Shown here: positions 5,903 through 62,300 of the stretch, in pieces
Layout of the letters: every line of letters begins with the position of its first letter
Position numbering within the stretch: the first letter of the stretch is position 1
NCBI GenBank assembly: GCA_043797125.1
Contig: JAZDPX010000045.1
Coordinates: 8,338 to 72,337, forward strand
DNA from: Candidatus Omnitrophota bacterium
GTDB lineage: Bacteria > Omnitrophota > Gorgyraeia > JABMRG01 > JAFGKX01
Direction: 5' to 3'
Length of the DNA stretch: 64,000 nucleotides
Position numbers and translations under genes: made by a program
Notes under the pieces: generated by a model
What the model was told of the DNA's origin: nothing
Databases searched by the model: none
The model's input: the letters and a program-made list of their open reading frames with translations, nothing else

Positions 5903-5949
5903 GCCACTATATACACCATTATATATATTAAAACGCGCAAAATCAATGT

Positions 5950-7247: not shown

Positions 7248-8987
7248 CTACACTTCTATCTGCAGCGCAAACGTAAAAGTGCTCGCCCCGGCTCCGGAGA
7301 TAGGCTTATTATCATCCATTTTTATCGCGTCTGCCCATTCGAGGCGAAGATAAAAATTGTCCGAAAAGCGGCACCTTACGCCGCCGCCTAAACCCATTAA
7401 AAACTTTTCTTTTTTAGTCTCACTTACTGTTGGATTTATAATCCCGGCATAGCCAAAATCGGCAAAAAGCACAGGCTGTATCTGTTTCTGCAAAGGCGCG
7501 TCTTGGCCTCTTACCTTCCATTGCTTGGGAATAAGATACATTGGAAATATCCAATCAATATTTAAATTTGCCCCGTAATCTCCGAGGAAGTCGCCTTCGG
7601 GAAAGCCCCTTACAGAATTTGCGCCGCCTAACTGAAATTGCTCCGCGGACGCAAGCGTGTGCGATGCAAGCTGAAGCCTTGAGCGCATTGCAATATAGCT
7701 GTCAAAAGGCATTAATTGAATGCGCCTTATAGAGTGTTCGTATTTAACAAAGGCCTTACCCGAGCCGTCCCTGCTTAATGTATTCTCATTGCGATTAGAC
7801 GCCCCTAAAAAATGCTCCGTGCCAAAGGTAAGCCTCGGAGCAAATACGGTCTGGCCTCCGAGGAAATCGTTTGCCGTAAAATCAAAACCAATATACGGCG
7901 AGCGCATCTCATCGTTAGTCGTAAGGTTATCCGCCATATATTTTTTTATGCTTTTTATTTCCAACCCTGCGTCTATATAGGCTTGAAATTTCTCTGACAA
8001 ATAAAGTTCTTTTGTAATATGCGGAGTAAGCATTTTTGTATTGCCTGTGATATCAAGGTATTTATATTCTTTCCCCACTCTCATAAAAAAATATACGGCA
8101 TCAAGCCCGAATTTTGTGCCGTAGGTATCAATCGGCAAAGAATAGCTTAAAGACTCGCCTAAAGAATCTTTAGTTGCAAGACTGCTTATGTATACGGAAT
8201 CCATTCGATTCAGCATATTTGAACTGCGCACGGAAACCGAATCTCTCCATCTTCCCACAAGCCTCGTTCCCTGGTTATCGCAGGAATTGCCGATATGGTG
8301 CGGGACGCTATCCGCAACCTTTAATGTAACATCTGATGTGCCTGGTTCCTTGCCGGCAGAAAGCATCGCCCTTATCGCGAGGTCGGGATTTTGGTTTAGA
8401 CTTAATATGTCTTTCTGGACCTTGTTGATATTTAAAATTTTATTTTTTGCCGTGTGAAAATACTTTTTAAGCAGGCCCACTGTAAACCATTTGTTGCCGT
8501 CTATAATTAACTCGCCCATCTTGCCTTCAGCCGCCGCGATTTCTATGTTACCGTCTTTTATCTCCTGCTCCGGTATATACGCGGTGCTGGTGATATAACC
8601 TTCCTGTTTATATTTTAATTTTATCTTATCAATTATAACCTGGAGGCCTTGAAAGGTTACCTGCTTATCAATATAGGGTTTATAGAGCGGAGCGAGGTCT
8701 TTTTCGCTAAAAATGGTGGAGCCCGTTATCTTAACCGATTTTAGGACAAAGGACGGGCCTTCCTGGGGAGGCTGCGGCTTTTCTTCTTCTACTTGTATTT
8801 CCGGGGTTTCGGCCTTTTCTTTCTCGAGTTGCTGTTTTTTCTGCTGCTGTTCTTCGTCAAAGCGCTCGGCCTGCGCGCCTATATCCTGGCCCGGGGGCTC
8901 TTGAGCAAAAGAAGGGCTAAGAAAAGAAAAAAACAAAGAAACTATAAACAATAAGATAAATATGCTTATGTGTTGAAGCTTAGTCAT
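7248..8987 (-). CDS. Two-partner secretion outer-membrane transporter TpsB (ShlB/FhaC/HecB family, POTRA + beta-barrel)
   Basis: 579 aa with an N-terminal signal peptide. POTRA-like segment: SFVLKSVKITGSTIFSEKDLAPLYKPYIDKQVTFQGLQVIIDKIKLKYKQEGYITSTAYIPEQ. C-terminal beta-barrel region ends in an aromatic residue pattern (...TFTFALQIEV). Same orientation as and upstream of the TpsA-like gene. Confidence 0.85.
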   Translation of the reverse strand: MTKLQHISIFILLFIVSLFFSFLSPSFAQEPPGQDIGAQAERFDEEQQQKKQQLEKEKAETPEIQVEEEKPQPPQEGPSFVLKSVKITGSTIFSEKDLAPLYKPYIDKQVTFQGLQVIIDKIKLKYKQEGYITSTAYIPEQEIKDGNIEIAAAEGKMGELIIDGNKWFTVGLLKKYFHTAKNKILNINKVQKDILSLNQNPDLAIRAMLSAGKEPGTSDVTLKVADSVPHHIGNSCDNQGTRLVGRWRDSVSVRSSNMLNRMDSVYISSLATKDSLGESLSYSLPIDTYGTKFGLDAVYFFMRVGKEYKYLDITGNTKMLTPHITKELYLSEKFQAYIDAGLEIKSIKKYMADNLTTNDEMRSPYIGFDFTANDFLGGQTVFAPRLTFGTEHFLGASNRNENTLSRDGSGKAFVKYEHSIRRIQLMPFDSYIAMRSRLQLASHTLASAEQFQLGGANSVRGFPEGDFLGDYGANLNIDWIFPMYLIPKQWKVRGQDAPLQKQIQPVLFADFGYAGIINPTVSETKKEKFLMGLGGGVRCRFSDNFYLRLEWADAIKMDDNKPISGAGASTFTFALQIEV

Positions 8988-45638: not shown

Positions 45639-47234
45639 TCAGTTATCAGTTTTCCCTGACTTATACTCCAAAATGTATCTATATAGCTCAGGATCTGTTT
45701 CTTCCGTGGTTTTGGGGGCTACTATTACGTAAGAGATGCCCTGCTCCTTAAACATCTTTGTAAGATTCGGGGTATGAAACCCTCCCGCGATTAATACCGC
45801 TATGCTTTGGCCTTTTTCAGTCATAAGAGCTATTGTCTTTTGCAGAAAAATCTCGTCTCTTTTGTTCGCTATGTCATAAAAATCAACAAGCGTGGCGAGA
45901 TTACTATCCAGGATAGAAATATCTGCGGACAGGGATTCCTTTATATTATATTTATCCGCCATTTCTTTTAAAAACGGCATAGATGCCGATATCAAAAAGT
46001 CGTTTTTGCGCTCTTTGTAATATGTGAAGTCATCCGGAATCAGTTTCAGGTTCAGGAAATTCTCGAGAATCTTAAGCACCCTGGATATAACGAGCAGCTT
46101 TTTCTGCTCATCGGTTTTCGCCAATGCCTCTTTCAGGCTGTTTTCCAGAAGGTCGGCCTCTTTAAAGAGGGTGTTTGTGTTAATCTCTTCGTGGCTGGTC
46201 ACGTATTCCACATACTGAATGAGGCTTTTGTAGTCTTTCATATCGATATTTGCCTCTTTTGCCGCTTCCGTTAAATAGTTATGATATTCCGCGGGGCTCA
46301 CCTTGTTTAACCTGAATTCCAAAGACTTCGTAACAAGCGGGGTGAGCTTTTCCTTGCTAAGGAGCTTGGATAGTTTTTCAATAAGCTTTGCCCTCTCCGT
46401 CTCCACCTGCGCGAAATCTATTTTTTCCTCGAGCCTGGCGAGGGCGTTAAACTGGTTAAAATTGCCGTAGCCCGACGCGTCCAAGCGTATGGCCTTGGCC
46501 TGTTTTTCAAGATGGGTGTAAAATTCCGACAGGGTTATCTCTTCATCTTCGTATTCGGCGTGCTTTTTCTCAAGTTCTATCAAAGCGGCCGGGTATATCT
46601 TTAGTTTCAAGGCGTCCGCGGCGGCCTGGAGCTGGTTTGCTGTCTCTGTTCCTTTTTCCCTGAATTCCTCTATCTTAAAAAACGTATCTAAGTTCTGCCT
46701 GTATAAGGCCTCTTCCTCTATGCCCTGTATTTCCATGTCGTAATCCGAGATGATATTCAAATATTCTTCACCTGATATCTTACCTTCTTTTAAATACTCT
46801 TCCGCGACTTCTAAGCGGCGCTCCTTATCAGCGTAGCTGCGTAAATACGTAAGGCTTACATCGCCCCAGCCGCCCTCAACCATGATAAGCTTAAGGCCTT
46901 TGTCTTTAATAAGCCCTTCTATTATTTTGGAGGCGTTTTTTTGCGCTTCGTAATTCGTGTGTATATCCTGGATATGTATTACCACCTTTTCGGGATTTTC
47001 AACCGCCTTATACCCCTCGACTATATGCCCGTATCCCTCGGATATGTCCAGCAATATTGGCATGACATTTTTGGGGGGCGTGATAAGCGCGCCTGATTTT
47101 TCCTGCTGCTGTTTTGTTTCTTGGGCGGGTTTGGGCTTAAGAGGGCATGGTATTTTCCCTGTTAAGCACAGAAATGCCAATACGCAGACTGCCGATAACA
47201 AAAATACGACAATAATGGTCTTTTTCTTCAGCAT
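45639..47234 (-). CDS. Hypothetical membrane-anchored protein (N-terminal TM helix, no recognised domain)
   Basis: 531 aa. N-terminus is MLKKKTIIVVFLLSAVCVLAFLCLTG. Preceded by SD aggag and a candidate TTTACA-N16-TATAAT promoter at 47269-47296. Confidence 0.5.
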   Translation of the reverse strand: MLKKKTIIVVFLLSAVCVLAFLCLTGKIPCPLKPKPAQETKQQQEKSGALITPPKNVMPILLDISEGYGHIVEGYKAVENPEKVVIHIQDIHTNYEAQKNASKIIEGLIKDKGLKLIMVEGGWGDVSLTYLRSYADKERRLEVAEEYLKEGKISGEEYLNIISDYDMEIQGIEEEALYRQNLDTFFKIEEFREKGTETANQLQAAADALKLKIYPAALIELEKKHAEYEDEEITLSEFYTHLEKQAKAIRLDASGYGNFNQFNALARLEEKIDFAQVETERAKLIEKLSKLLSKEKLTPLVTKSLEFRLNKVSPAEYHNYLTEAAKEANIDMKDYKSLIQYVEYVTSHEEINTNTLFKEADLLENSLKEALAKTDEQKKLLVISRVLKILENFLNLKLIPDDFTYYKERKNDFLISASMPFLKEMADKYNIKESLSADISILDSNLATLVDFYDIANKRDEIFLQKTIALMTEKGQSIAVLIAGGFHTPNLTKMFKEQGISYVIVAPKTTEETDPELYRYILEYKSGKTDN

Positions 47235-47338: not shown

Positions 47339-50300
47339 TTACGCCTGCGCCTCTATCGCTTCTGTTGCCTGCTTTATCTCATCAAGGACCTTGCCGATTT
47401 CCGCTGAGGTAATCGGCGGCAGCATCTTAGCGATAACCTGGGCAACGCTCGGCTGGCTGGAGTGCAGCTTGCTTAAAGTATAAGCCAGCATAGCTTCAAA
47501 ACTTACCACGCCTTTATCCGGCTGCTGCGAAGTGATGAAAAACGATATGTTTCTGCCGGACCTGGCCTGGTTTCCTTCGTTAACAACTTCCGCTATGCGT
47601 TTTAAACCATTTTCTCCATAGCCCGGGTCGCAGATTACCCCGATTGCCGCGTAGTTGTTGTTTTCTTTCTGCTGCAGAAGCTCTTTTAATTTCTTTAGCT
47701 TGAGCGCGTCTTTTTCAACATCGTCCATCGTGTCGAACTCCGACTGGATATAACCCTTAACCTTGCCTCTTAGGAAATCATCTAGCTCAAGTACGTCGTG
47801 CCTGTCTAAGCGCTCGTTCAGCTCAACGACAAGCGATTCTTTCCTGTTTTTATCAGGGACTATTAATATGTTGAACTTGCCCCCGCTTCTCGCTGTTTGC
47901 ATGCGGGCAAGTTCGGCAATCCTATCTTTATCTTTTTCTGTTACAACAGACTCATATATCACCAGCGTATAAATATTTCGCGAGTTCTGGCTGAATTCAT
48001 CAACGCTGTATTGCTCGTTCGCTCTTTCGAGCATCTCGTCGCAGGCTTCCCTGAAAAGCTGCTCGTAACTTTTTGCTTCCGGCCCTGGCTTTGCCTCGGT
48101 GGGCGGCGGAGTTTCGTCGCTTAAAAAGCGCTCCGGATCGTTTTTAAAATATGTATTTTGTATCGTTTCTACCTCTTCTTTGGTAAGAATTCGCATTACC
48201 TTTTTATTTGCTGCATGATCAAATTCATACCTTGCCACCTCGCCGTTTCCGACAGGCACGACAAAAAGCGCGTCTTTAAGTATGTTCGCGATTTTAGAAA
48301 ATTTGGTGTAGCCGCTAAGTATGGCTTTGGAGTTCTGTAGATACTTTGTGCCCGCGATTGCCACAGCCTCAAGCGGGTCTATCAGGGCGTATTCTTCTTC
48401 GTTCGGATTTTCTAATTTTATTAAAGTTATCTTATTTTTTTCATAAACAGAACGCAGTTTTTTAAACTCATCCAATTCGCTGTCCATTATTGCCTGATCC
48501 ATGTTAGACGGCAGATAACAATACTTTTCGCCTCCTACTTCACGCAGCCATTGCCCATTCCAAATTTCGCGGAATTTTTTGTAGTCGTAATCATCGGGAA
48601 TATCGTCGATTTTTTTAATCTCGCCGCCGATTATAGCCCCGTAAAATCCCGCGGCCTTCGCCGCTTCTTTCCAGGCCCTGACTGACATTATCGGCTTTCC
48701 CGCGCGGTAGCTTGACATGGAAAACTTATGCACAAACTCATGCTCGATGGTAAGGAAATCTGCCGAGGCTAAATCCCACTGCACATTATCCATGCTTTCA
48801 AGGCCCGTTTGCCCTTTCACGCCATACGGAAGCTTTGTAGCTTCTGACCCTACTGGAACGCTGATAAACTGCCTTAGTCTCTTTGGGAACCAAGTAATGG
48901 CCTCTCTGGCCATATCAAGTTTTTCCTCGGGGATATATCTCATAATCTCCACGTTTTCTTCCTGCTTTGTCTGCTTAACAAAATTAAAATGCCTTATAAA
49001 TTCAACGACAGGCGCGTCTTTTTCGGGCACCTGGCTTATTACCTCGTCTAAAAGTTCGCTGAGCTTCTCGATATTTATTCTGCCGTTTTCTTTTTGAGCG
49101 CCTTGTGGATTGGATATATAGTCTTGCGCTAATTTTATCGCTGTATCAATAAGCCTGATCTTTTTAAGCAGCACTAATTTTACAAAATCGCGCGCGTTAA
49201 GGCCTGATAGCTTATTTATTAATACGCCGTCTTTTTCAAGGCCTATTCTTCGGGCTATTACTTTTGCCGCCTCAAAAGCGTCTCTTCTGTGGGCGTGCAT
49301 CTGGGGCATTTTTTGTTTTGCGTCCTCGCTAAGGCCGCAATACACAAGATAGCCGCTTTCAGCATGCCTTATCAGGCCTATTGTTTTATAAAAGTTATGA
49401 AGCGCCATCTCTTCTCTTAAAAGTTCTTTTGGCTTGGCGCTTTGCCTGCGCAGCCTAACGCTATCTGTGCCGGTAATACTCCTTAAAATAATAGCTGCGC
49501 CTCTTTTCTCTATTGCTAATATATAATTAAACCTGACCTCCCATGTTGAGTGCTCCGGATCATAGTTATCATAGCCGCCGAAGAAATAAGGCAGCCCGTC
49601 TTCCAGCGGGTGGATTGAAATAGTTTCTCCGGTTTTTAGGTTTATCTCTTTAAGCGCCAGTCCGCTTGCGTTTAACCGGTCTTTTTCTAAAACATACTGA
49701 TTATCTCCGGCAAAAATTATTATTGGCTCGCTATACGAGAATCTTATTTCATTTTTGCCCGTTAAAACAATTTCTTCGTCCGACAGCGGCGGGAACGCCG
49801 CCTTCCAGTATTCCGCCGCTTTTCTATTTTTCGCAAAATCCGCCCAGTTTTTAAGCATCCTTTCTATCTTTCCTCTGTTAGGCAAAAACTTTTGGTCTTT
49901 GTTTGCCGCCATCTCAAGCGCCAATTCGTATATAAAACCTAATATCTTAAAAGCTTCCCTGGCGTCATCTTTGTTGTTAATTGTCACGTCCTCGTGAACT
50001 TTTCCGGCTTTTTGTTTATATTTTTTCTTTATCGCGGCTTCTGTCAGTTCGCTGATTCCAAGCGCCTTAATTACAAAAGCCTCCAATGAATCCCAGTTTG
50101 CGTCGTTAACATTCGCGATTTGCTCTAATATAAATTCCCTCGCCGCCATTCTAATTTTACTTAACATTACGCCATAGTCTGCCTTAAGAGCGCCTGCCGC
50201 GTTTCTGGCGGCATCCATAAATACTTCGTTCTCGCCTAATGCAACGAGAACTTCCGCGTCTTTCTTAAGTGCGTCATCTGGAGTATTTATTATCCAGAGC

Positions 50301-53300
50301 ATCACAGCTTCGTGCGCATTCGCTTCAAGCGCGCCTGTTTTTACGAAGTTTCCGACAGCTTCCCTGGCCTTATCTTGTATGCCGGGGGTATCCCAGCGTA
50401 CGCCCCCCATGCCAGTCGGCAGCGGCGGGGCGGTGGGCGTTATCCGCGCTGCTATAAAGCAACTATCAATAGAATATTTCGGCTCATAACTGAATGGATG
50501 CGTTTTGCTTAAGGGAAGTATTTCGTAATTTTTTGAGGCAATCACGGTCTGAATTAGGCCAAGATTTGAGTAAATTGCGGCGCTCGTAGGTATAAGCACT
50601 GCCTCGCAGTTTAAGGCCTTGGCTAATTCCTTGGCGTAATCAATAAGCTTGTTATATATATCATCCGCGGCAACCCCGGTTAACAGGCTCGTGCTTGGGT
50701 TAATGCCGGGAAGAACAAGGTATTTTTTGTTGTTATCTTCTATAATTAACACATACATGCCGCCTTGGGCAATACCATTCGAATCAAATATGATTATATT
50801 GATAAAGTTGGGATTATTCCAAAGCCTTTCATCTTCTGCGGTGCATGCGCCCATATTCAGGCCTGCTACGCCGTGGGCTTTTCTCTTTGAGGCAACGAAT
50901 CTTAACGCAATTTTTTCTTGCGATTCCTGGAATTCATATTTCCTCTCCACTTCAGCCTGCATGTGTTCATATTCACTTCCCTGCAAGAGCTTGGTTATGA
51001 TGGCTGCTTCTTTGCCTTGCTGCATCTTAAAGGTTGTGGATTTTAATTCGTTTTGTATTGATTGCTCGTCTGTTTTATCTTTTACTTTTTCCCATATCGC
51101 ATCAGCCGTATAATCGTCATCTATTCTTAGCGCCTTCTTGATTAATTGTATCAGCTGACGCTCATCCTTCTTTTCGCGAGCTTTAAGTATGTTAAATACT
51201 GTTTTAGCGGCGCCTTCTGGTCTTTCTATTCTGACGCTGAGCATCTTGTCATACGACTCTTGATTTTGCTTTTTATACGCAGCAATACATTCACCGGCTA
51301 GATCTCGCAAGGTGTCCCCCATAAATACATTTATATCGATAATATTCCCAATTATTGCCAATGATTCTGGCAGCATCCTGTTGCCGGAACTCCTGTAGTA
51401 GCGATATAGTTGTTCCAATAAATCTTCCCTGACATTGTGTAGGCCCCCCATTTTCCACTGCTCAAGAAGCTGTCCGCCTAAACTGGCTGCTTTTTCTTTG
51501 TCCGGCGCTAACAAGGCTTCCCCGTTTACCTTGGCAATAACCTGCCGGATAGTTCGCCACGGACTAGCATCTAATGGCATGGACGGGTCCTTTAAGATAT
51601 ATTGGCCGACAGATATATCGATCGGTTTTGTTTCTTGCAAATGCGCTGGTATCTCCTTTGTGTCTTGCGGCCTGTCGGCTCTATTTTTGTACATCGCAAA
51701 ATAACTTCCCCTTTGGACGGTTACTGCGGGCGGGAATATATATAATAGCATTGTGCTGAACAACGGGTCTTTGTCTGCTTTGGCTGTGTCGCCTTCTAAT
51801 ATCTCATTATGTATGCGCTTGCACCTTTCTATGAGCTCATTTAGCTTCCTTGGATTGTTCTTATATGCTTCATATACGCTAACTATGGCATAGGGGTTTT
51901 CTTTTAGGAAAGCGTTGATTTGGTCTTTTTCTTTTGATATTGGTTTTGAGATTACGCCTTGTTTAACGCCCAAAAGGAGGAAGTTTTCCAATAAATCATA
52001 TGCCCTTATGCCGTGTGTTTGTATAAATTCTTTAATAAAAGCCAGGTCAGCCTCTGATTCTATCGCGCCAGCAGCAAACAGCTTTTTCGTAACTCCGAGA
52101 CAAAGGAACGCGCCCTGGCGCTGCTTAAAGAATATGGGTTTGAAAAATATTTTCCAGGATTGGGGCCATTTCCTCAATATGGGTTCTGCTTCATGTATCT
52201 GCTCTATTAGTTGATATTCAACGCCTGCGGATAATGTTAGCGCTTGTATTAAATCGTATCCTATTTTAATAAAGTCGTCTTTTGTATTAATAGCCGAGTC
52301 AAAAAGATAAAACATTCTGGCAAAATGTTCTGTATTTGCTGCTGTCTCTTTAAGGAATCCCGTTAGCTTTGCAAAAAAGGTTGGCTCTGCTATATCATCA
52401 AGCCCTGTCTTTGTTATTACAAAAAGGCCTATAAGAATACTGACAAGCCGTTCCTGTTTTAGGCCTGTGGCGGTTTTAAGTGCTTCTGTTACGCTGGCTA
52501 TCTCGTCCTGCGCTTTGGCAAATAACCGCTTATCAAATATTCCTACTCTTGCGTGCTCTGCGGTTATGGCTGCTAAGGCTTCGGCTCTATCAAGCTTATT
52601 GGTTATTTTTTCTGCTGTGGTTATCGCATCTTTAAACTTTCCTGCCTTTGTCTGCTCTGCTGCTACGCCTTTAAGGGCTAATGATTTATTATCGGTATCG
52701 GTGATGATGCTTGCTGTAGCGAGGGCGTCATTAAACATCCCTGCCTTTGCCTGTTCTATTGCCAGCTCCTTAAGGATGGCTGGTTTAAGATGAGCGCCAT
52801 CTATGGTTTTTGCTGTAGCGAAGGCATCATTAAACGTATTTTTTGCTTCATCAAGCATGCCTGCTTTTGCCTGCTCTGCTGCTATGCCTTGAAGGGCTTC
52901 TGCTTTATGTTTGGTATCGGTGATGGTGCTTGCTGTGGCGAGGGCGTCATTAAACGTATTCTTTGCTTCATCAAGCATGCCTGCTTTTGCCTGCTCTGCT
53001 GCTATCTCTTTAAGAGCTAATGATTTATAATAGGCGTTGGTTATGATGCTTGCTGTGGCGATGGCGTCATCCAGCTTGCCTATCTTTGCAAACCATTTTG
53101 CAATAACGATGAGGGCTTCTGGTTTGTCATCGGTATAGGTGCTGGTTTTTGCTGTGGCGAGGGCATCTATTAATGCTTTGTTTGCGTCATCCATCCTGCC
53201 TGCTTCTGTAAACCCTTCTGCGACAGCGGCGAGGGCTTTTGCTTTGTCAACGGCTTCGGTAATGGTGTTTGCTGTGGCGAGGGCATCTTCAAACATCCCA

Positions 53301-56300
53301 ACCCTTGCCTGCTCTGCTGCTATGCCTTGAAGGGCTTCTGCTTTATGTTTGGTATCGGTGATGGTGCTTGCTGTGGCGAGGGCATCATCAAACATCCCCA
53401 CCTTTGCCTGTTCTATTGATATCTTCTTAAGGGCTAATGTTTTATAATAAGCATTGGTGATGGTATTTGCTTTGGCGATGGCATCATTAAACGTATTCTT
53501 TGCTTCATCAAACATGCCTAGCTTTGCCTGCTCTATTGCTATCTCCTTAAGGACGGCTGGTCCACGATAAACGCCATCTATGGTTTTTGCTGTGGCGAGG
53601 GCATCTATTAATGCTTTGTTTGCGTCATCCACCCTGCCTATCTTTGCAAACCATTTTGCAATAACGATGAGGGCCTTTAGTTTGTCATCGTCATGGGTGA
53701 TGGTTTTTGCTGTGGCGAGGGCATCTATTAATGCTTTGTTTGCGTCATCCACCCTGCCTATTTCTGTAAACATTTCTGCGGCAGCGGCAAGGGCTTTTAC
53801 TTTATCAGCGGCATTGGCAATGGTTTTTGCTGTGGCGAGGGCGTCTATTGATGCCAAACAAAATATCTGCAGTAAAGAGCGCACGGTATCTGTAGCATTT
53901 TTAATTTTCTCTAATATCTTCTCCCTGCCCTGCTGAATTGCCCCTTGTGAATTTTCAATATCTTTTAAGAATGCCTCATTCTGCCCAAGCTTAACCAGCA
54001 CTTCATCGTCAATAAAGGGCTGCTCGTGTATTATCGCGAGAGCAAGCGCCTCGAATTCGCCGCGGCCTATTTCCTGGCCGGCTTTAAGTTTTGCTACTGC
54101 TTCTTTTGCCCTTTTAAAGGTGCGCTCATCCGGCACCATCCCGCCGTTGCCCAGCGGTATAATTTTACCCGCCATGTAAATCTGCTGCGCCAGTTCAACC
54201 GGTATGCCGGCTTTGCCGTTTTCATCAAGTTTGTCGTCTTCCAGGTAAGGCTTAACCTTTGTTTCATAATAATTAAGCCATTCCCGGAATAGCATCTTAG
54301 CGACTTTGTCTTCTTCCGGTTCGCCTTCTCTCTGCTTTGTAAGCGTTTGCTGGAAATCTCCTATTATAACCATACGTTCCTGAACCCTTGAAATCGCGAC
54401 ATTTAAACGCCGTATGTCTTTTAAGAATCCTATTTCCGGCTTCCCGGGGTTGCTTCTTACAAAATCGATTATAACAACCTTTTTCTCCTGGCCTTGTATG
54501 CTGTCAATGGTGGTAATTTCAAATTTTTTGTGGAATATTTTCTCAAGCTTTTTGTCAATGTAAGCCTGTTGTGCTTTATATGGAGTAACAATTATGAAGT
54601 CTTCTGGTTTGTAGTTATATTTCTGCATAAGCTTGGTTATTTCATTTACCACTTCTTCCGCGTTGCCTTTGTTCCAGAGAGACTTTCCGTATTCTGTATT
54701 TCGCCAGCCGCGCCTTTCTCTGTATTTATCCGCGTACCAGCGGTTGCCATCCTTGCCGTTTTGATTGTTTCGCAGCGTTGAGGTGTCTATTATTTTAAGC
54801 GTATCTTTGTCGAACGGCTCCCAGCCTCTTTTCTGAAGTTTCGCCTGCCACCACTTATGCTGTTTCCACCATTCTTTTTTCAGCTGCCTTTCGCATTTTT
54901 TCTGAAACTCTTCACCGTAAGAAATGGCCACCAGGCCGGTGTGTATGGGGTGTGAACGCCAGCAGGTAGACAAGGTGATGTGGTCGGCATATGCCGGGTC
55001 GATTATATTTATTAAGCCCGTGTTGTATAGGCCTGTCTGCTCTTTTGTTAAGCCGTATTTTTCCCCGATTACATCATGATCCGCCGGGAAAGGCCCGAGT
55101 TGGTTGGGGTCTCCTATTATAATGACTTTTTTCGCCAGCCTAAGCGCTATAAGCACCTCTGGTAAGGTTGGTTTACTTGCCTCATCAATTATAAGGACAT
55201 CGAACATCGCTTTATCAAAATTAATCGTTTTGTCCATATAAAATCCGACCGATGTTCCCGCCGCGATAAACGCGTCATTGTTTTCTCTGCGCTTTTCCTC
55301 AAAAGACAACAGATTTTCCTTGATTTGCGTAGAAAACTTTCTGACTTCGTCTATTGTGATATCGCCCATCTTGTTGCCAAGCCTTAAGATTGGAATGCTG
55401 CCGTCTTTCACCAGCTCTTCCAGGGCCTTATCCACGGCTACGTGAGTCTGGGCGGTAATAAGCACTCTCTCGCCGCGCTTAACAAACTGTTTTGCTATTT
55501 CAGTAACGACCTTTGTCTTGCCGGGGCCGGGCGGGCCTATCACAACCGTCAAATCCTGCTTGGAATTAAGGCATAGCTCGACAGCCTTTTGCTGGGATTC
55601 ATCGCCTTCGATTTCCTCGTCTATAAAAGCAAAGTCCGCGCCTAAGTCTAAGTCGTTGCTGTCTGTATCCTGCGGCCATTCCGCGGCCGGCATAAGCCCA
55701 AGCATTCTTTTTATTACGCTGTTGTAGTTTCTGCCGTTATTCTTTTTTATGTCCTCTATCAGGCCGTCTAATACTTTAAACTGCAGTTCGTAGGCTGCGA
55801 CGTTAGGATTTTCCTTGTTTTCAGCGGATGCCTTCTTTTCTGTGTCTATCAAAGCATCCAGCACTTTTATGTATGTCTCCAGCTCATCGAGCGCTTGTTT
55901 TTTGCTTTTTGGCTGAACTTTATTCTTTTTATACAGTTTTACGTTAGATGGCGGAAGTTTCCCGACGCCTGGGAAAATTTCGGCGGCGGTTTGCATCCAT
56001 TCGATTACGGAGAGCAAGCGCTGTTTTTTCTTTTGCGGCGTATCTTCTTTCTTTGCCAGGTCAATTATCATCTTCTGGCCTTGCGGCAATATACCCAACG
56101 GCGCCAACGATGCCATTTCCCAGGATGCCTTAATCAATGCTTGCTCGCCTATGTCTTGCGAAACTTCTTCCAGCAATTCCACCGCCGGCTTTAAAAATGC
56201 CTCTATATCTTTTGCAAACACGTTGTATGCGCAAATAAGCAATTCTCTTTTTGTTTCTACGCTTACTTCGGCATTGGTTTTAAGGTCTGCCGGCGGATAA

Positions 56301-59300
56301 AAAATTGTAAACACCCTTTCTATATCTTTTATGCTTAAGCCCTTTTCCGCGGCGAATAAAGAAAGCTTATCAAGAATGCCGTTGTAACCCCGCGTAGTGC
56401 CTGTTATTCCAAGCATGTTACAAAGCCCTGTGTGTATATTTTTCTTTTTTTGCTGTACTGACCGCTCAAGCAGTATGTTGTTTAGCATCATGGAATATGT
56501 TATGTTGGAATCTCCAAAAATATACTGTTGCAAAGGCAGAATGTCAAATTTTTGTTCTTCCGCTTGCGGCATCGCGGAGCGAACCACTTTTTCGTCGGTG
56601 GCATAAGTCTTAAACTCATAAAAAGTTTCGCCTAGTATTGTCCTAAGTTTAATGTCGCCGTATATGTCTGCTGCGCCCTCTTCAAAAACCAATAAGTGGT
56701 TTTTGATAAGAAAGCGGGCCAAAAGATTAAACACAGCTATGTGTTTTTCCATACCTTTATCTTCCGGCCCCGGCAAAAGCCCTGAATGCAAAGCAAAGAT
56801 TTTGTTGTCTTTTGATGAGAAGTTGAGAAAATCTCCAACGTTGCGGTCAAATGTACAAAAATTCAGCCTCTGGGCGTTTATAAGGCTCCTGAAATCGGCC
56901 AAAAAGACTTTTTGCCTCTCTCCTTGTACGCTGTTTTCTAATTTTGCAAGAATGCCGTCTAACGACAGTGGGGCCTGGCCCGTCAATGCCGCCTTGCCCA
57001 GAGCAGAGCCGCTTGCTTTGCCTTCTATGTTTAATAAAATATCGCCGTTTATCTTGATGATTTCCGTTACTTTTGTGTCTTTGCCCAGCTGGTCGGAATT
57101 TTCTTGTTCGGGATCCAATATGTTGATGATTGTTTCCTCGGGCGGCCTTTTATCCTGCGGAATGTCTTGTTTTGTAGCGTTGTTGGGCTTAGGAGGCTGT
57201 AGCTGCGATATATCAGCCTTTAGCTTTTTAATTTCCTCGTTTATCTTGTTTACCTTCGCAAGAAGCTCATCAACAAGAAGCTTCTTCTCAAGGCCTTTTT
57301 TCGCCGCTTTATCATCCGTAAGTAAATCAATAATTTTTCTTTTGGCCTTTATCGCTTTGTTCAAATGGCCGATGGCGAGTTCAAGCCTGCTGATTTTATC
57401 TTGCGTTTTCTTTTGTGTCTGGGATGAGTTTTGCGGTATTGTTGTTTTAGCCGCTATTTCCTCGTCGCGCTTTGCTTTATCCAATTCATCTTTGCACTCT
57501 TTCTCAAGGGCCTCAACCTTACCCCTTCTCACACATTCCTCTTGCGTTTCATAAATTCTGATTTCAAGCGCCTCGTCTTCCTTATCAAGCTCAAAGGCCT
57601 TGTTAAGAAGCTTAAACGCCTCTTGAATGTCTTGCGCCGTTTTGTTTTCCCTGCTTAAAAATTCTTCCGCCTTTTCCAAATACGCCTGTTTAAGGGTTGT
57701 TTTTACCGCGGTATCATCCGGGACAAGCGCGCTCGCTTTCTCGAGCAGCTCTATTGCCTTTTCATAATTTTTCTCTTCTATAAGCTGTTTGGACCGCGTC
57801 AGGTAGGCTTTTTTAAGCATGGCGATTAATGTTGCGTCGCCCGGGACCAACTGAAGCCCTTTTTCCAGAGAAGCTATTGTGTTGTCAAGATTTGATTCGG
57901 TTTCGTGTTGCTTTGCTCTCTTCTCATACGCTTCGCTAAGCGCTTTTGAAATATCTGTGTCATCCGCAGCAAGTTTGTGGGCATCCGTAAGCACATCTAT
58001 CGCTTTTTCATAATTTTTCTCTTCCATGAGCTTTTTTGCGTATTTTAAGCTCGCTTCTTTACGCAACTGCAGTATGCGGGCCCTGTTTGAATCAAACTTA
58101 TGCGCTTTTTCAAGCAAGGCTACCGCGCCTGCATAATCCCCTTTATCGATAAGCTGCCTACCATAATCTGAAGACACTGCTGTGAGCCTTTTGCTTAAAA
58201 GTTCTATGCCGTAACCGCTTAATTCATGCTTGATGGCAATCACAAGATAGTTTATTTCTTCGTCGGGCCTTTGCTCTTGCAGCGTAGAGCCTATTTTTTC
58301 TTTTAATTCTTTAATAAATTCATTATTCGGCTCTGCTTTGTGCAGGGCCTCTATTACACAGGAGCGCTGCTGTGCCGGCATTTGTCTGTCCATAAAGATT
58401 TCATCGATTAAAACGCTTCTTAGTTCGCTGGAGAAAGCATTCCTGTATAAATCGCGGAGAAAATCTGTTGTTTTTTCCGGGAATAGCCCTGAAAGATGCT
58501 TTAGCGCCTTCTTAATATCTACCGCTCCTTCTTTGTCATTGTTTAATATTTCTTTTACTCCGCCGTAAAAAAGCATTTTCGATTCAAAGGCTAATACAGC
58601 GTAAAATTCTTCCTCGCCGCATTTTTCTATATCGAGATCGCTGCTGGAAAATTCGTTAAGGGCCTCGAAAATACGCGACTGCACGAAGGTTGCCCTTGTC
58701 AGCGGCGCATCATCCCATAGCGGCTTTATCAGGTGGCTTATTTTGCTTATATCCCCTTCTCTCATTCTAAGTGAAGCTCCTATCATTTCTTCGTAAGCTT
58801 CGCGTCTATATTGTTTATTAAGTTCGATATGCAAAATATCTATGGCGTCTTTTATAATTTGTACCTCTGTTCCGCTGAATCTTTTGTAGGTTCGTATTTT
58901 ATCTAGCAACAATTTTGCGGTAACGCCGATTTTCTTAATTACGTCGCTAAAATTCTTTTCTATTTTTGAAAAATCATTGCACTTGGCAATAATATCTAAA
59001 AGGTTGACATGCAAAAAGGGTTCATCCGGATAAAGCTTAATGGCTTTTCTTGCATATTTTTCCGCTTCGTTAAGATTACCCGCAGTTGCTAAACCTGCTG
59101 ATGTTGCAAAATAACTATATGCATCTTCAATACTTTTAATATCTTTGCCTTGCGTCATTTGGGACAAAAGCCTGGCGCTTGGCTTAAATGTTCTGTTCTT
59201 GATATCACCTTGTTTGCCAGCGGTTTTGATAATCTCTTGTACCTTAAAATGCAATTGCGTAAAAGCTTTTTTGTCCATGACCATCTTAATGTCGCTTGTC

Positions 59301-62300
59301 AGGCCCATATCCGCTCTGCCGAACCACACCCTGGATACAAGCCTACTTAGGTAATGGCTGTCTTGTTCCCATCCTTCGGGCCACTGTTTTTGATCTTCTT
59401 CTTGCAAAGAATTTTTTGCTTCATCGCTTATATATACTCTCCCCAGGGATTTAAATGCCGAAGATATGTTTTTTCTGATAAAGATTTCTATTGTACGGTC
59501 ATCGATAAGTTGGAACTTCAAGTATCTTGGATTTTGTCGGTCATCGCCAACAAGATAATGGCTTATCTCGTGCAATATGGCTAATGGGTTATCTATTAGG
59601 AATTTCTCAAGAGCTATAAGGTTGTGTTCTGCGCAGGTAAAACCAAAAAGGTCTTTATTTATTTTGTCAAAACTGTAAAGCCGCAGTCCTAATGGTATAG
59701 CTGTATCCAGAACAGAAAAAAGCATATTTTTATAGTCGGGGTTGGGGAATCGCAGCCCTTCAAAAACATCTTTAACTGCGCTCGCCGGGTCTGCGTCTAC
59801 TTTGTTAATAACAAGCTCTTCAAATATTTCTTCTGGTTCGAATTTGCTTGGTAATATACAAACGGGCACAACCGCCCGGCTCTCATCGGCTTCGGTAAAT
59901 TTCAGCTTGTCTGTTTGCGCGTATGCCTCGTTTCCGCCTATGCCCTGGTGTTCGCTAAGTTCTAGGTGTACGCCAGCATGCCCCGCCGTATCGGCTTCTT
60001 CATAATTGACCTTAAAATAACCTTCGTCATCCAGGCGCATCAGCACACTATAGATAGCTTTATTTATGGTTTGGCCGTATTTTTCCTTTATGCTTGCCCA
60101 TATCTTTTTTAGGGTTTCTTTTGAGCCGTTGGCATTGTATTCCCTTGTCTTGTCGCGGGCTGCGTCAACGGAATCCGCTACTTTTACTATGCTGTCAATT
60201 TTTTTAAGCAGCGGTTTTTTGCCATATATGCTCTTGTCGGCTGAATGATGATTTACAATCAGTTCAAATACGCCATCTTCTAGGTATTCAGTAACTCCAT
60301 ATGCTTTTAATATTGTTTCTGCATTAGCCGCGTGTTCAGTTTTTCTTGTTTCCTCATTTTCATCCAGGCTGCCGTTTTTAATTGTCAGGGCAAAAGTCTC
60401 ATTATCATAAAGTTTGCCGATATCATGCCACAAGCCTGCCTGGCGCGCCTTTTGTATGGCCCTGGAACCTTTGTCAGAACCCATGCCCATTTCTTGCGCG
60501 ATTTTTGCCGCAAGCCTGCTGGTGCGCCTGGCGTGCTCAAACAGCGCTTGTATCTGTTCAGCGCTGGCATTTATCTTATTATCTTTGGCAACCTGCTTAT
60601 ATACGGCGAATGCCTGCTCTTCTTTTATTCTATTTGTAAGATCTTCGTCCGCTTCGCCCAGCGTGGCTTTCCCAAGAGCGCGTAAATAATAATGGGTTCC
60701 CCTGCCCGGGTTTTCTTTTAATTTTGTGTTGAGCCAGGACAGGATTTCGTCGTTTAATCGCACCTTGCCTATTCCCGTATGGAGCAACATACCTTTTTTT
60801 CTTATGACTAAATCGTTTCCTTCGGTATGGAATTTGATTTTGTTCTGCGCGCAAATATATTCTTGCAGTTCGTGCAATAGGGCGGCGGGGTCTTGAGAAA
60901 ACTTTTCGTATATAGCAATGAGTTTGTCCTTTGGCAGGGCTTTGCCGAAGCAGTCTTCGATAAGCAGGTCGAATGTATGCAAATCCGGAGGAGATTTTTC
61001 GCGCAAGGCCAAAAGGCTTAAAATCACATCTTTATGGGAATTCTTTATGCGTTGGTTGGTTTTAACCCAGCTTATTATGGTATCTATATCCATTTTGCCC
61101 TGATGGAAAAGTTTTCCCGCATGTTCTCGGCCGGCTCTGTCTGTTATTATTATTTTCTCTTCTTTCGGGTTTACGCTTACAATCCCGCCGCGCTTGCCCA
61201 TTTGCGCGGGGCCGCTGCCGACATTAACCAGCTCGCTTAAATTCGCATCCAGCACCACATCCTGATACGCTAACACGTCGTGTTTGTAGTACTGCTGCCA
61301 GCTGCTCAAAAGGCCGGCCATCTTCCTTGCCTCTTTGGAAGCGCCGGCTTTGCTTAATTTCACGAAATCTCCGATAATGATTAAGTGCTCTTCTGCCATT
61401 GAAATTGCTAAAGTCAGCCGCTGGTGAAGTCCTTGTAATTGGCCTGGCTTGCTTCCTCTGAGGTCTAACACAACCACCTTGTTTTTCTCAGGCAAGCCAA
61501 ACCCTTCATGCCTGTACTCGGTGACAATTGTGGTGATGTCTTTATTGGCATAATCGTATTTGTCTATAAGCCTGTCTATTTCATCTGAGAGCCCTAATGG
61601 TTTGTCTGCGACATCAATTATTTTCAATACATCCTCACCAAAAGGTTCCCAATCTCTTGGGGCGAGTTCTTTGTCGCCGTATGAGAGCGACACAAGGCCC
61701 GCGTGAATCGGGTGCAGCTGGTGGGCTGTGGATAGCCTGATTATATCAGCTCTTTCATATATTTTATCTATGGGCAGGCCCTGATTATAGTAGTCTATTT
61801 GTTCTTGCGTTGTTTTCTTCACGGTTTTGGCCTCATTGGGTAAAATGCCGCGCGGCGGCATTTGCTGGCTGTCATATATGATGATAACTCTTCTTGCGCG
61901 CGTCATTGCCTGGAGTATCTCAGGGTAGGTTGCTTCCTCCGCGTGTATAAACGCAACATCAAAAGCTTGTGGTACATCCCTAAAAAGAAGTTTATCATCA
62001 AACCGCCTTTTTAACGCTTCGCCCTCTTTATACTCTTTAATCTCGCGATCCGTATCCATGCTTTGAAATTTTCCGAAAAGCGCGTAGCCTTTTCTGCGCT
62101 CACCCACCTCAAGTCTTTCATTAAATAAATCAAGGTTTTTATCCGGTATGCGATTATTGGCTGTAGCAACTATTTTGGCTGTATTACTGAATTCATCCGG
62201 GTTGTTTCCCAATCTTAAAACCGGCGCTTTTTTATCTTTGGGTGCCTTTTCATCGTTTACCAATTTTTCCAAATATCTATCCACAAGCCTGTGCGTTGCT

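What the first reader, a model, noticed from the sequence alone, without database searches (positions are those of the whole stretch)
52440..53880. Novel 35-36-aa tandem helical repeat array, near-identical at the DNA level
About 14 units of about 105-108 nt repeat with high nucleotide identity. This implies recent expansion or ongoing recombination. The protein consensus (ALATAKTITxxxxKxxALxxIAxEQAKxGMxDEAKNTFNDAL) does not match TPR, HEAT or Sel1 as I know them, although TPR-like helix-turn-helix packing is plausible. Arrays like this are hotspots for copy-number variation and are an assembly risk.
Basis: seen in the sequence. Interest (0 to 1): 0.55.

Follow-up and report, generated by a model that had tools for sequence, protein, structure and literature searches.

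The report
TPR-like repeat array in giant protein
The repeats are real, but they are an ordinary TPR-type helical repeat domain (12 units of 33 or 40 residues) of a kind seen in thousands of bacterial proteins, here sitting inside a giant (at least 5,529-residue) protein of an uncultured Omnitrophota bacterium.

Summary
The array exists at the stated place: window 52532-53845, minus strand, aa 3362-3799 of one 16.6-kb ORF. The description is only partly right. There are 12 units, not about 14. Units come in two discrete lengths, 33 aa/99 nt and 40 aa/120 nt, which average 36.5 aa; there is no 105-108-nt period. Units are 51-92% identical in DNA (mean 67.5%), so they are not near-identical.

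The array scores 62 bits on Pfam TPR_12 (cut-off 30.1), while reversed and shuffled controls score nothing. AlphaFold2 predicts a confident helix-turn-helix solenoid (pLDDT 88.5). Its best PDB matches are TON_1535 and classical TPR proteins.

The same 33/40-aa repeat type occurs in 1,909 protein clusters at E<=1e-10. About half of the closest 28 are STAND/NLR-like NTPases.

Recent duplication and intra-array recombination are supported. Identical residues use the same codon 76% of the time against 37% expected, there is a 79-nt exact repeat, and unit 9 is a chimera of units 5 and 8.

Most likely role, by inference: a protein-binding adaptor between an Upf1-like helicase and a conserved module with a GNAT-like end. 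It is ordinary as a repeat; the giant host protein is the more unusual object.

The parts
47339..63928 (-). Giant ORF that contains the array: 5,529 aa from the first possible start (TTG). The frame stays open to the window end at 64000, so the protein may be longer.
52532..53845 (-). TPR-like repeat array, 12 units, aa 3362-3799
53726..53845 (-). unit 1 (40 aa) DALATAKTIANAADKVKALAAAAEMFTEIGRVDDANKALI
53606..53725 (-). unit 2 (40 aa); 90% DNA identity to unit 7 over the 99-nt core
53486..53605 (-). unit 3 (40 aa); 84% DNA identity to unit 10
53387..53485 (-). unit 4 (33 aa)
53288..53386 (-). unit 5 (33 aa); shares a 79-nt exact stretch with unit 9
53168..53287 (-). unit 6 (40 aa); units 6-7 form a 225-nt block 89% identical to units 1-2
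53069..53167 (-). unit 7 (33 aa)
52949..53068 (-). unit 8 (40 aa); its 3' 58 nt are 57/58 identical to unit 9
52829..52948 (-). unit 9 (40 aa); chimera with a unit-5-like 5' part (81/82 nt) and a unit-8-like 3' part (57/58 nt)
52730..52828 (-). unit 10 (33 aa)
52631..52729 (-). unit 11 (33 aa)
52532..52630 (-). unit 12 (33 aa), the most divergent unit
53846..53911 (-). N-terminal capping helix of the solenoid (aa 3340-3361)
52439..52531 (-). C-terminal capping helix (aa 3800-3830, degenerate unit)
54356..55603 (-). Upf1/IGHMBP2-like SF1 helicase upstream of the array (aa ~2776-3191). Walker A GPPGPGKT at aa 2798 and DEAS at aa 2915 are intact.
53846..54193 (-). ~120-aa domain between helicase and array (aa 3246-3361). 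A paralogous copy follows the downstream module.
50399..52321 (-). Conserved ~630-aa module directly downstream of the array (aa ~3870-4510). It has no Pfam match and is shared with large proteins of Omnitrophota, Auribacterota, Moranbacteria and an archaeal MAG.
50441..50956 (-). GNAT-like alpha/beta end of the module (aa ~4325-4496). Fold evidence is weak.
50060..50455 (-). Second copy of the ~120-aa domain (aa 4492-4623)

Best explanation
The region encodes a TPR-clan alpha-solenoid of 12 helix-turn-helix units.

Anatomy of one unit:
- Helix A: 17 residues, unit positions 12-28.
- Turn: x-G-x, positions 29-31.
- Helix B: 9 residues in the 33-aa units and 15-16 residues in the 40-aa units. 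The extra heptad adds exactly two helical turns.

Conserved residues (A2, A4, A6, I9, K15, A18, L19, I22, A23, A27, G30) lie at i, i+3/4 spacing and form the packing core. Variable residues (positions 7, 11-14, 16, 17, 20, 21, 24) lie in the loop and on the opposite, exposed face of helix A.

The array belongs to a widespread 33/40-aa TPR subtype (Pfam TPR_12/TPR_30 range). Its closest relatives are mostly the repeat arms of STAND/NLR-like NTPases.

It grew by recent tandem and segmental duplication and by recombination between units. The nearly identical unit borders favour this.

Inferred function: a protein-binding adaptor within a giant, apparently cytoplasmic, multi-enzyme protein of an Omnitrophota bacterium. 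It would hold or recruit a partner next to the active Upf1-like helicase on its N-terminal side and the conserved module with a GNAT-like end on its C-terminal side. The repeat family, fold and duplication history are shown. The binding role and the partner are inferred.
For: Family:
- TPR_12 scores 59-62 bits against a cut-off of 30.1; TPR_7 and TPR_14 also pass their cut-offs. Reversed and shuffled controls give no TPR hit.

Fold:
- AF2 gives pLDDT 88.5 and pTM 0.77, with 25 helices in regular pairs.
- The Foldseek top hit is TON_1535 (3zpj, E 1e-7), followed by APC/C TPR subunits, LGN/Pins, OGT, CTR9 and LbcA. TON_1535 is also the only PDB sequence hit (E 9e-5).

Subtype:
- 5,301, 1,909 and 214 clusters match at E<=1e-3, 1e-10 and 1e-30 respectively.
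- Of the top 28, 22 hit TPR_12, 12 hit TPR_30, 12 hit NPHP3_N, 12 hit AAA_16 and 4 hit NACHT.
- Core-motif spacing in 162 relatives is dominated by 33 aa (396 times) and 40 aa (270 times).

Core and surface pattern.

Duplication and recombination:
- Same-codon use at identical residues is 76% vs 37% expected.
- A 79-nt exact repeat, a two-unit block at 89% and a chimeric unit 9.
- Unit borders are 83% identical vs 57% in the variable patch.

Context:
- The helicase and the module flank the array.
- A relative (L002) has HEAT_2 repeats in the same position upstream of the module, so an alpha-solenoid before the module recurs.
- No hydrophobic segment reaches a transmembrane-like score.

Precedent: TPR-like arrays bind single target proteins through extended shape-complementary surfaces (PMC13581612).
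Against: - No partner or ligand is known, and nothing here tests binding.
- Unit lengths are 33/40, not the canonical 34. The canonical TPR signature residues (W4, Y11, P32) are absent.
- Global TM-scores to PDB TPR proteins are low (0.2-0.4), as is usual for long solenoids with different superhelical pitch.
- The array is absent from every relative that carries the flanking helicase and/or module. It is therefore not required for the function of those modules.
Confidence: 0.6

Rival explanations
1. NLR-type sensor transplanted into a non-STAND protein. The variable patch of the array would recognise a specific foreign protein (phage, prey or host). Binding would switch on the neighbouring helicase, HD and GNAT-like enzymes, making the giant protein a single-chain conflict or effector system.
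For: - The closest relatives of the array are repeat arms of STAND/NLR-like NTPases.
- The helicase resembles Mokosh MkoA (PADLOC 1.5e-59) and the HD domain resembles the Cas3 HD.
- Pooled dN/dS is 1.28 at variable positions against 0.45 at conserved ones. Several recent unit pairs have dN/dS >= 1.
- Homologous TPR sensors are known to be shared between unrelated defence effectors, Avs7 and Dsr1 (PMC13581612).
- Omnitrophota are described as predatory or host-dependent and rich in giant proteins (10.1101/2023.11.21.568195).
Against: - The giant protein has no STAND NTPase. The only hit is a sub-threshold nSTAND3 match on the helicase P-loop.
- The array itself has no PADLOC hit.
- The neighbours are housekeeping genes (GlmS, LpxA, a tetrapyrrole methylase), not a defence island.
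- The dN/dS counts are small, come from non-independent paralogous pairs and are confounded by recombination.
- Internal conservation (mean 51% aa identity) is far below the >85% used to define hypervariable NLR repeats (PMC4986451).
Confidence: 0.2
2. Passive spacer. The solenoid is only a rigid linker that arose when separately encoded helicase and module genes fused. It has no specific ligand.
For: - In L009 the helicase and the module are separate adjacent genes. In L006/P0017 they are fused without this array.
- Pooled dN/dS between units is 0.77, which is compatible with relaxed constraint.
Against: - Core positions are strictly kept: D1, A2, A6, L19 and G30 are invariant.
- Conserved positions show dN/dS of 0.45.
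- The variable positions form a coherent exposed stripe rather than being scattered.
- 438 aa is long for a linker.
Confidence: 0.12
3. A new helical repeat family unrelated to TPR, HEAT or Sel1.
For: - Unit lengths of 33/40 aa differ from the canonical 34.
- A profile of the single unit finds nothing significant in PDB sequences (best E 0.59).
- The array does not reach TPR_30 at E<=0.1.
Against: - It passes the curated Pfam thresholds for three TPR families, with clean negative controls.
- The fold search returns TPR proteins.
- Thousands of relatives are themselves annotated by TPR_12, TPR_30 or TPR_10.
Confidence: 0.03
4. Assembly artefact. The copy number or order of units was mis-assembled in the metagenome-assembled genome.
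For: - The source is a MAG.
- Repeats share up to 79 nt exactly, and 225 nt at 89%.
Against: - All 12 units are in frame, at exact multiples of 99 or 120 nt, inside an uninterrupted 16.6-kb ORF.
- Units are distinguishable (at most 92% identical), and the longest exact repeat is shorter than a typical read.
- The 33/40 mixture is the norm in relatives.
Confidence: 0.05

Closest known systems
Pfam TPR_12 (PF13424) and the TPR clan, including the ~40-residue TPR units of LGN/Pins
   Same: - Profile match above the curated threshold (62 bits vs 30.1).
- Helix-turn-helix units stacked into a solenoid.
- LGN/Pins TPR domains are among the best fold matches.
   Different: - Units are 33 or 40 aa, not 34.
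- Helix A is long (17 aa) and helix B is short (9 aa) in half the units.
- The canonical aromatic and proline signature positions are not present.
TPR_30/TPR_12/TPR_10-type repeat arms of bacterial STAND (NACHT / NPHP3_N / AAA_16) NTPases
   Same: - They are the nearest sequence relatives (30-40% identity over the whole array).
- They share the motif ALxxAxxIxDxxxRxxALxxIAxxQAxAG and the 33/40-aa dimorphism.
   Different: - The host protein here has no STAND NTPase. The array sits between an SF1 helicase and an uncharacterised module.
- This array itself does not reach the TPR_30 model.
TON_1535 of Thermococcus onnurineus (PDB 3zpj)
   Same: - It is the best PDB match by both sequence (E 9e-5) and fold (E 1e-7).
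- It shares the motif A..I.....K.eALkaIA.
   Different: - Only 19% identity, with TM-scores of 0.27-0.35.
- It is a stand-alone 359-aa archaeal protein of unknown function. The unknown function is from my own recollection; no paper on it was found in the library.
Internally conserved TPR/ANK/WD repeats of fungal NLRs (Dyrka et al. 2014, PMC4986451)
   Same: - Repeats share DNA ancestry.
- There is evidence of exchange between units.
- Variation is concentrated at a few helix positions.
   Different: - That class is defined by >85% aa identity over >=100 aa. Here the mean is 51%, and the best pair reaches 87% over only 33 aa.
- No population data are available.
Giant multi-domain proteins of Omnitrophota (10.1101/2023.11.21.568195; 10.64898/2026.06.07.730766)
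   Same: - The source phylum is the same.
- It is a very long ORF with repeat scaffolds (TPR/HEAT) mixed with enzyme domains.
   Different: - The described giants have many transmembrane regions and SecA-DEAD domains. This protein shows no transmembrane-like segment and carries Upf1-like SF1 helicases instead.
- The 2026 survey does not mention helicases.

Membership tests
TPR clan (Pfam TPR_12 PF13424) | Sequence profile match at or above the curated gathering score | tested here: met
   TPR_12 scores 59.0 bits (array with caps) and 62.2 bits (exact array) against a cut-off of 30.1. TPR_7 scores 28.7 vs 27.9 and TPR_14 scores 25.6 vs 23.5. One reversed and three shuffled controls give no TPR hit at E<=0.1.
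TPR clan | Antiparallel helix-turn-helix units stacked into an open alpha-solenoid | tested here: met
   The AF2 model has pLDDT 88.5 and 25 helices in regular A/B pairs. Foldseek matches to TON_1535, APC/C, LGN, OGT and CTR9 have probability 1.0. This is a prediction only; there is no experimental structure.
TPR clan | Canonical 34-residue unit | tested here: not met
   Units are 33 aa (six) or 40 aa (six). The same dimorphism is seen in 162 relatives.
TPR clan | Canonical signature residues (W4, L7, G8, Y11, A20, F24, A27, P32) | tested here: inconclusive
   Small residues at packing positions (A2, A4, A6, A18, A23, A27) and an invariant G30 in the turn are present. No conserved W, Y or P is present. 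I did not establish a residue-by-residue register against the canonical motif.
STAND/NLR-type TPR sensor arm | Repeat arm homologous to those attached to STAND NTPases | tested here: met
   Of the 28 closest relatives, 12 carry NPHP3_N, 12 carry AAA_16 and 4 carry NACHT; 22 carry TPR_12 and 12 carry TPR_30.
STAND/NLR-type TPR sensor arm | A STAND NTPase (NACHT / NB-ARC / AAA_16) in the same polypeptide | tested here: not met
   Pfam and NCBIfam scans of the whole giant protein find only sub-threshold nSTAND3 (E 0.0038) and AAA_16 (E 0.01) hits, both on the helicase P-loop.
STAND/NLR-type TPR sensor arm | Ligand binding by the repeat arm triggers oligomerisation or effector activation | not testable with these tools
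   This needs biochemistry. The precedent is described in PMC13581612.
Highly internally conserved NLR repeats (Dyrka et al. 2014) | >85% aa identity between repeats over >=100 aa | tested here: not met
   Mean pairwise aa identity is 51%. The best pair (u5/u9) reaches 87% over 33 aa only. The criterion is taken from PMC4986451.
Sel1-like repeats (SLR) | Match to the Sel1 profile | tested here: not met
   No Sel1 hit at E<=0.1.
HEAT / ARM repeats | Match to HEAT profiles | tested here: not met
   No HEAT hit for the array. As a positive contrast, the relative L002 gives HEAT_2 at E 2.3e-13 at the equivalent position.
PPR repeats | Match to the PPR profile at threshold | tested here: not met
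   PPR scores 15.9-17.2 bits against a cut-off of 25. NCBIfam PPR scores 17 against 20.
Mokosh MkoA (considered for the host protein) | Full-length MkoA architecture plus a partner PLD nuclease, MkoB | tested here: inconclusive
   Only the helicase core matches, at profile positions 768-1096 of 1112 (E 1.5e-59). The N-terminal part of MkoA is not matched. The neighbouring genes were not scanned with PADLOC.

The most novel reading that the evidence does not exclude
An NLR-type TPR sensor array has been grafted into a giant protein that has no STAND NTPase and combines several enzymes: an Upf1-like helicase, a Cas3-like HD domain and a module with a GNAT-like end. The host is a predatory or host-dependent Omnitrophota bacterium. 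The variable patch of the array would recognise a phage or prey protein and is diversified by recombination between units. The whole protein would then be a single-polypeptide conflict or effector system of a new architecture.
Probability: 0.12. Interest if true: 0.55.

Novelty: new member of a known kind. Interest (0 to 1): 0.2.

Why it matters
As a repeat it matters little. It is one more TPR-clan array of a subtype present in thousands of bacterial proteins, and current Pfam models already capture it.

Two points have modest value:

1. The subtype has a clean 33/40-aa dimorphism: a heptad, two helical turns, added to helix B. Its variable patch sits between nearly identical DNA borders. This makes it a compact example of how solenoid arrays grow and reshuffle by recombination between units.

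2. The host protein is unusual. It is at least 5,529 aa long and has almost no close homologues among billions of proteins. It looks like a fusion of cassettes that relatives encode as separate genes. The array was inserted exactly at a fusion junction. That may help explain how giant proteins of Omnitrophota are assembled.

Tried and rejected
- Rfam and tRNA scans of the window found nothing.
- PADLOC gave no hit for the array.
- The word-indexed 5.8-billion-protein search with the array gave only 13 hits and no self-hit. The exhaustive search was needed to see the real distribution.
- A metagenome scan with the array plus its flanks found no relative, so copy number could not be compared between strains.
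- A search with the helicase region returned only generic Upf1-like helicases at <=46% local identity (<=31% for any hit covering more than a third of the query). None carries TPR domains.
- The look-up of encoding contigs for the neighbouring gene failed twice. I therefore could not see how the giant ORF is annotated in the source contig or where it starts.
- A unit-level profile against PDB sequences gave nothing significant.
- A paper search for TON_1535 gave 0 hits.
- I did not try an exact look-up of the giant protein in the collection, because the true N-terminus probably lies outside the window.
- A DGR-type mechanism was considered on general grounds only and was not tested. No reverse transcriptase or template repeat was looked for.
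- The self-BLAST of the whole protein returned nothing outside the array. A chunked BLAST was needed to reveal the internal duplications.

Full report
**1. What is at the coordinates**

The finding lies wholly inside one open reading frame on the minus strand, 47339-63928. This ORF is 5,529 aa from the first possible start codon. The frame is still open at the window end (64000) with no earlier start codon, so the protein may be longer.

Tandem Repeats Finder reports overlapping arrays with periods of 99, 120 and 219 nt and scores of 290-505 between 52803 and 53854. Parsing the protein on the motif [DE]A[LIF][ATI][TK]A gives 12 contiguous units, aa 3362-3799 = window 52532-53845. Six units are 33 aa and six are 40 aa.

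Base identity at lags of 105 and 108 nt is 0.29 against a background of 0.26. It is 0.45 at 99, 0.53 at 120 and 0.47 at 219 nt. The 40-aa units carry a seven-residue extension, DANKALI or EAKNTFN.

Pairwise DNA identity over the common 99 nt averages 67.5% (51-92%), and amino-acid identity averages 51%. 'Near-identical' holds only for a few pairs: u5/u9 91%, u2/u7 90%, and the two-unit block u6-7 vs u1-2 at 89% over 225 nt.

The longest exact repeat is 79 nt, against at most 13 nt in 200 shuffles. The array is therefore real and far beyond chance.

**2. Structure of the unit**

AlphaFold2 on aa 3340-3830, with 13 homologues as alignment, gives pLDDT 88.5 and pTM 0.77. The chain is made only of paired helices. 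Placing the DSSP string on the units gives:

- Helix A = unit positions 12-28 (17 residues).
- Turn = positions 29-31, with an invariant G30.
- Helix B = position 32 to position 6-7 of the next unit. It is 9 residues in 33-aa units and 15-16 in 40-aa units.
- Loop = positions 7/8-11.

The length dimorphism is therefore an insertion of exactly two turns of helix B.

Conserved positions within helix A (K15, A18, L19, I22, A23, A27) follow i, i+3/4 spacing, which marks a packing stripe. The most variable positions (11-14, 16, 17, 20, 21, 24) lie in the preceding loop and on the opposite face of helix A. I could not compute whether that face is concave or convex, because model coordinates are not exposed to the scripting tool.

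**3. Family membership**

Pfam scores the array above the curated cut-offs:

| Family | Score (bits) | Cut-off (bits) |
|---|---|---|
| TPR_12 | 59.0 / 62.2 | 30.1 |
| TPR_7 | 28.7 | 27.9 |
| TPR_14 | 25.6 | 23.5 |

There is no Sel1 or HEAT hit, and PPR is sub-threshold. As a control for the alanine-rich composition (23.5% Ala), I scanned the reversed sequence and three shuffles. None gave any TPR-family hit at E<=0.1.

Foldseek against the PDB returns TON_1535 (3zpj) first (E 1e-7). Classical TPR proteins follow: APC/C subunits, LGN/Pins, OGT, CTR9/PAF, SKI complex and LbcA. In total 195 matches have E<=0.001. TON_1535 is also the only PDB sequence hit (E 9e-5). Global TM-scores are low (0.2-0.4), as expected for long solenoids of differing pitch.

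**4. Distribution of this repeat type**

An exhaustive phmmer search of 1.84 billion cluster representatives finds 5,301 proteins at E<=1e-3, 1,909 at E<=1e-10 and 214 at E<=1e-30. The best is 40% identical, and most hits are 1,000-2,200 aa long.

Pfam families matched by the 28 best hits:

| Family | Proteins matched (of 28) |
|---|---|
| TPR_12 | 22 |
| TPR_30 | 12 |
| TPR_10 | 11 |
| NPHP3_N | 12 |
| AAA_16 | 12 |
| NACHT | 4 |

The nearest relatives are thus largely the repeat arms of STAND/NLR-like NTPases.

In 162 relatives, the spacing of the core motif is 33 aa (396 times) or 40 aa (270 times), and every other value occurs 21 times or fewer. The dimorphism is a trait of the subtype, not a peculiarity of this locus. 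Smaller relatives look secreted, or carry a peptidoglycan-binding domain or a sigma-70-family domain.

**5. History of the array at the DNA level**

Where two units have the same amino acid, they use the same codon in 76% of cases, against 37% expected from the gene's codon usage. The units therefore share recent DNA ancestry or exchange sequence.

Unit 9 is a clear chimera. Its first 82 nt match unit 5 at 81/82, and its last 58 nt match unit 8 at 57/58.

Identity is highest at the unit borders (codons 1-9, 83%) and lowest in codons 10-21 (57%). This gives conserved recombination substrates flanking a variable patch.

Nei-Gojobori estimates pooled over all pairs give dN/dS of 0.77: 1.28 at the variable positions and 0.45 at the conserved ones. 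Several recent pairs exceed 1. These numbers rest on few sites, on non-independent paralogue pairs and on sequences that recombine. I treat them as suggestive only.

Copy-number variation in the population could not be tested, because no close relative of the array exists in the collections searched.

**6. Host protein and organism**

Neighbouring proteins match exactly to an NCBI MAG named Candidatus Omnitrophota bacterium, with locus tags V2A72_ and a contig of 142,845 bp. The giant protein itself is not in the 15-billion-protein collection: there was no self-hit.

Its domain map:

- aa 220-896: a degenerate paralogue of aa 2473-3237. Walker A is replaced by APRGCDSE and Walker B by HAEEA.
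- aa 1130-1256: an HD domain, weakly like the Cas3 HD.
- aa ~1926-2076: classical TPRs.
- aa ~2776-3191: an intact Upf1/IGHMBP2-like SF1 helicase (MkoA-like in PADLOC, E 1.5e-59).
- aa 3246-3361: a ~120-aa domain.
- aa 3362-3799: the array.
- aa ~3870-4510: a conserved module with no Pfam match.
- aa 4492-4623: a second copy of the ~120-aa domain.
- About 900 further residues with no match.

No 19-residue window exceeds a Kyte-Doolittle score of 1.61, so no transmembrane segment is evident in the part seen.

**7. The flanking module and comparison with relatives**

The C-terminal 1,730 aa have only four homologues in 5.8 billion proteins. All four share just the ~630-aa module, at 38-52% identity.

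A profile of the module finds it in Omnitrophota, Auribacterota, Moranbacteria and one archaeal MAG, and in nine metagenome contigs.

Its AF2 model is of medium quality (pLDDT 69). The C-terminal ~180 residues (pLDDT ~80-93) match only GNAT acetyltransferases (NatD, AAC(3), AtaT, TacT, Naa50, SpeG), at weak E-values of 0.009-0.3 and TM ~0.5.

None of the 16 related loci contains the array:

- In L009 the helicase (1,594 aa) and the module (1,087 aa) are separate adjacent genes. They have near-identical hydrophobic N-terminal leaders and near-identical C-terminal tails.
- In L006/P0017 the two are fused, with about 1,060 unrelated residues between them.
- In L002 the module is preceded by HEAT_2 repeats, E 2.3e-13.

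The array is thus a lineage-specific insertion at a cassette junction. An alpha-solenoid ahead of the module recurs, but with a different repeat type.

**8. Mechanism and rivals**

Shown:
- The TPR-clan family and the predicted solenoid fold.
- The 33/40 architecture.
- Recent duplication and recombination.
- The position between the helicase and the module.

Inferred: the array acts as a protein-binding adaptor whose exposed helix-A face and loop make the contact surface. This rests on established knowledge of TPR domains and on recent work showing that TPR-like arms of bacterial STAND proteins bind single target proteins through large shape-complementary surfaces. That work also shows that homologous sensors are shared between different effector types (PMC13581612).

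Rivals:
- A true NLR-like sensor that gates the neighbouring enzymes. This is attractive given the relatives, but there is no STAND NTPase, no defence-island context and no high internal conservation.
- A passive spacer created at gene fusion.
- A new repeat family, which is refuted.
- An assembly artefact. This is unlikely given perfect framing and distinguishable units, but only spanning reads can exclude it.

**9. Verdict**

The repeat is a new member of a known kind and is not surprising to a specialist. The more unusual object is the host. It is a giant protein with almost no close homologues, apparently without transmembrane segments and rich in helicase domains. It differs from the Omnitrophota giants described so far, which are rich in transmembrane regions and carry SecA-DEAD domains. 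It appears to be built by fusing cassettes that relatives encode separately.

Noticed in passing
window 47339-64000 (-): The ORF holding the array is at least 5,529 aa long and its frame is open to the window edge, so the true N-terminus is probably outside the window. The protein is absent from the 15-billion-protein collection, although its neighbours are present (NCBI Omnitrophota MAG, locus tags V2A72_).
   Followed up: partly
window 61241-63271 (-) vs 54218-56512 (-): There is an internal duplication of a ~700-aa pre-helicase plus SF1-helicase block: aa 220-896 vs aa 2473-3237, 27-34% identity. The first copy has lost Walker A (APRGCDSE at aa 515) and Walker B (HAEEA at aa 662), so it is likely a pseudo-helicase.
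   Followed up: partly
window 53846-54193 (-) and 50060-50455 (-): A ~120-aa domain occurs twice, once after the helicase and once after the conserved module (aa 3246-3361 vs 4492-4623, ~30% identity). This suggests the giant protein is a chain of 'enzyme + tail' cassettes.
   Followed up: partly
window 50399-52321 (-); loci L001-L016: A ~630-aa module with no Pfam family is conserved at 38-53% identity in large proteins of Omnitrophota and Auribacterota and at ~27-33% in Moranbacteria and an archaeal MAG. Its last ~180 aa look GNAT-like by fold (weak E-values). Invariant motifs include SKRKAHxVAG and KKYLxLPGINP. L011 carries two tandem copies.
   Followed up: partly
L009 708-5492 and 5503-8766: In a metagenome relative, the helicase and the module are separate adjacent genes. 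They share a near-identical hydrophobic N-terminal leader (…RIISxITLAAFILTQAGxGYALR…) and a near-identical C-terminal tail. The helicase gene also holds about six copies of a ~100-aa repeat. This looks like a family of leader/tail-tagged cargo proteins.
   Followed up: no
L002 4254-15117: The Omnitrophota MAG PPR_0461 has an ORF of at least 3,621 aa that runs off the contig. It has a signal-like N-terminus and HEAT_2 repeats (E 2.3e-13) about 140 aa upstream of the same module.
   Followed up: partly
window 60161-60541 (-): There is an HD domain (PF01966, E 3e-11) inside the giant protein, weakly similar to Cas3 HD nuclease models in PADLOC and NCBIfam.
   Followed up: no
window 57701-58153 (-): A second, classical TPR region (TPR_14, TPR_19, TPR_2; aa ~1926-2076) lies in the same protein. 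It was not detected as similar to the array in the chunked self-BLAST (E<=0.01). A long coiled-coil-like, lysine- and glutamate-rich stretch follows it.
   Followed up: no
window 59558-59572 (-) and 48728-48742 (-): There are two HExxH motifs: HEISH at aa 1453 and HEFVH at aa 5063. The first lies in a ~70-aa motif present three times (aa 89-160, 918-1030, 1373-1464) and also seen in P0017 (HELSH). These may be zincin-like sites.
   Followed up: no
window 1-5983 (-) and 7248-8987 (-): A two-partner secretion pair is present. The ShlB/FhaC-type TpsB transporter (POTRA_2 + ShlB) is at 7248-8987. A TpsA-like ORF of at least 1,994 aa runs off the window start, with a TPS domain, DUF7948 and ten SBBP beta-propeller repeats. 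An AAA_14/DUF4143 ATPase gene (5950-7173) lies between them.
   Followed up: partly
window 45639-47234 (-): The 531-aa protein immediately downstream of the giant ORF has no Pfam match. NCBI annotates it as hypothetical protein V2A72_07895.
   Followed up: no
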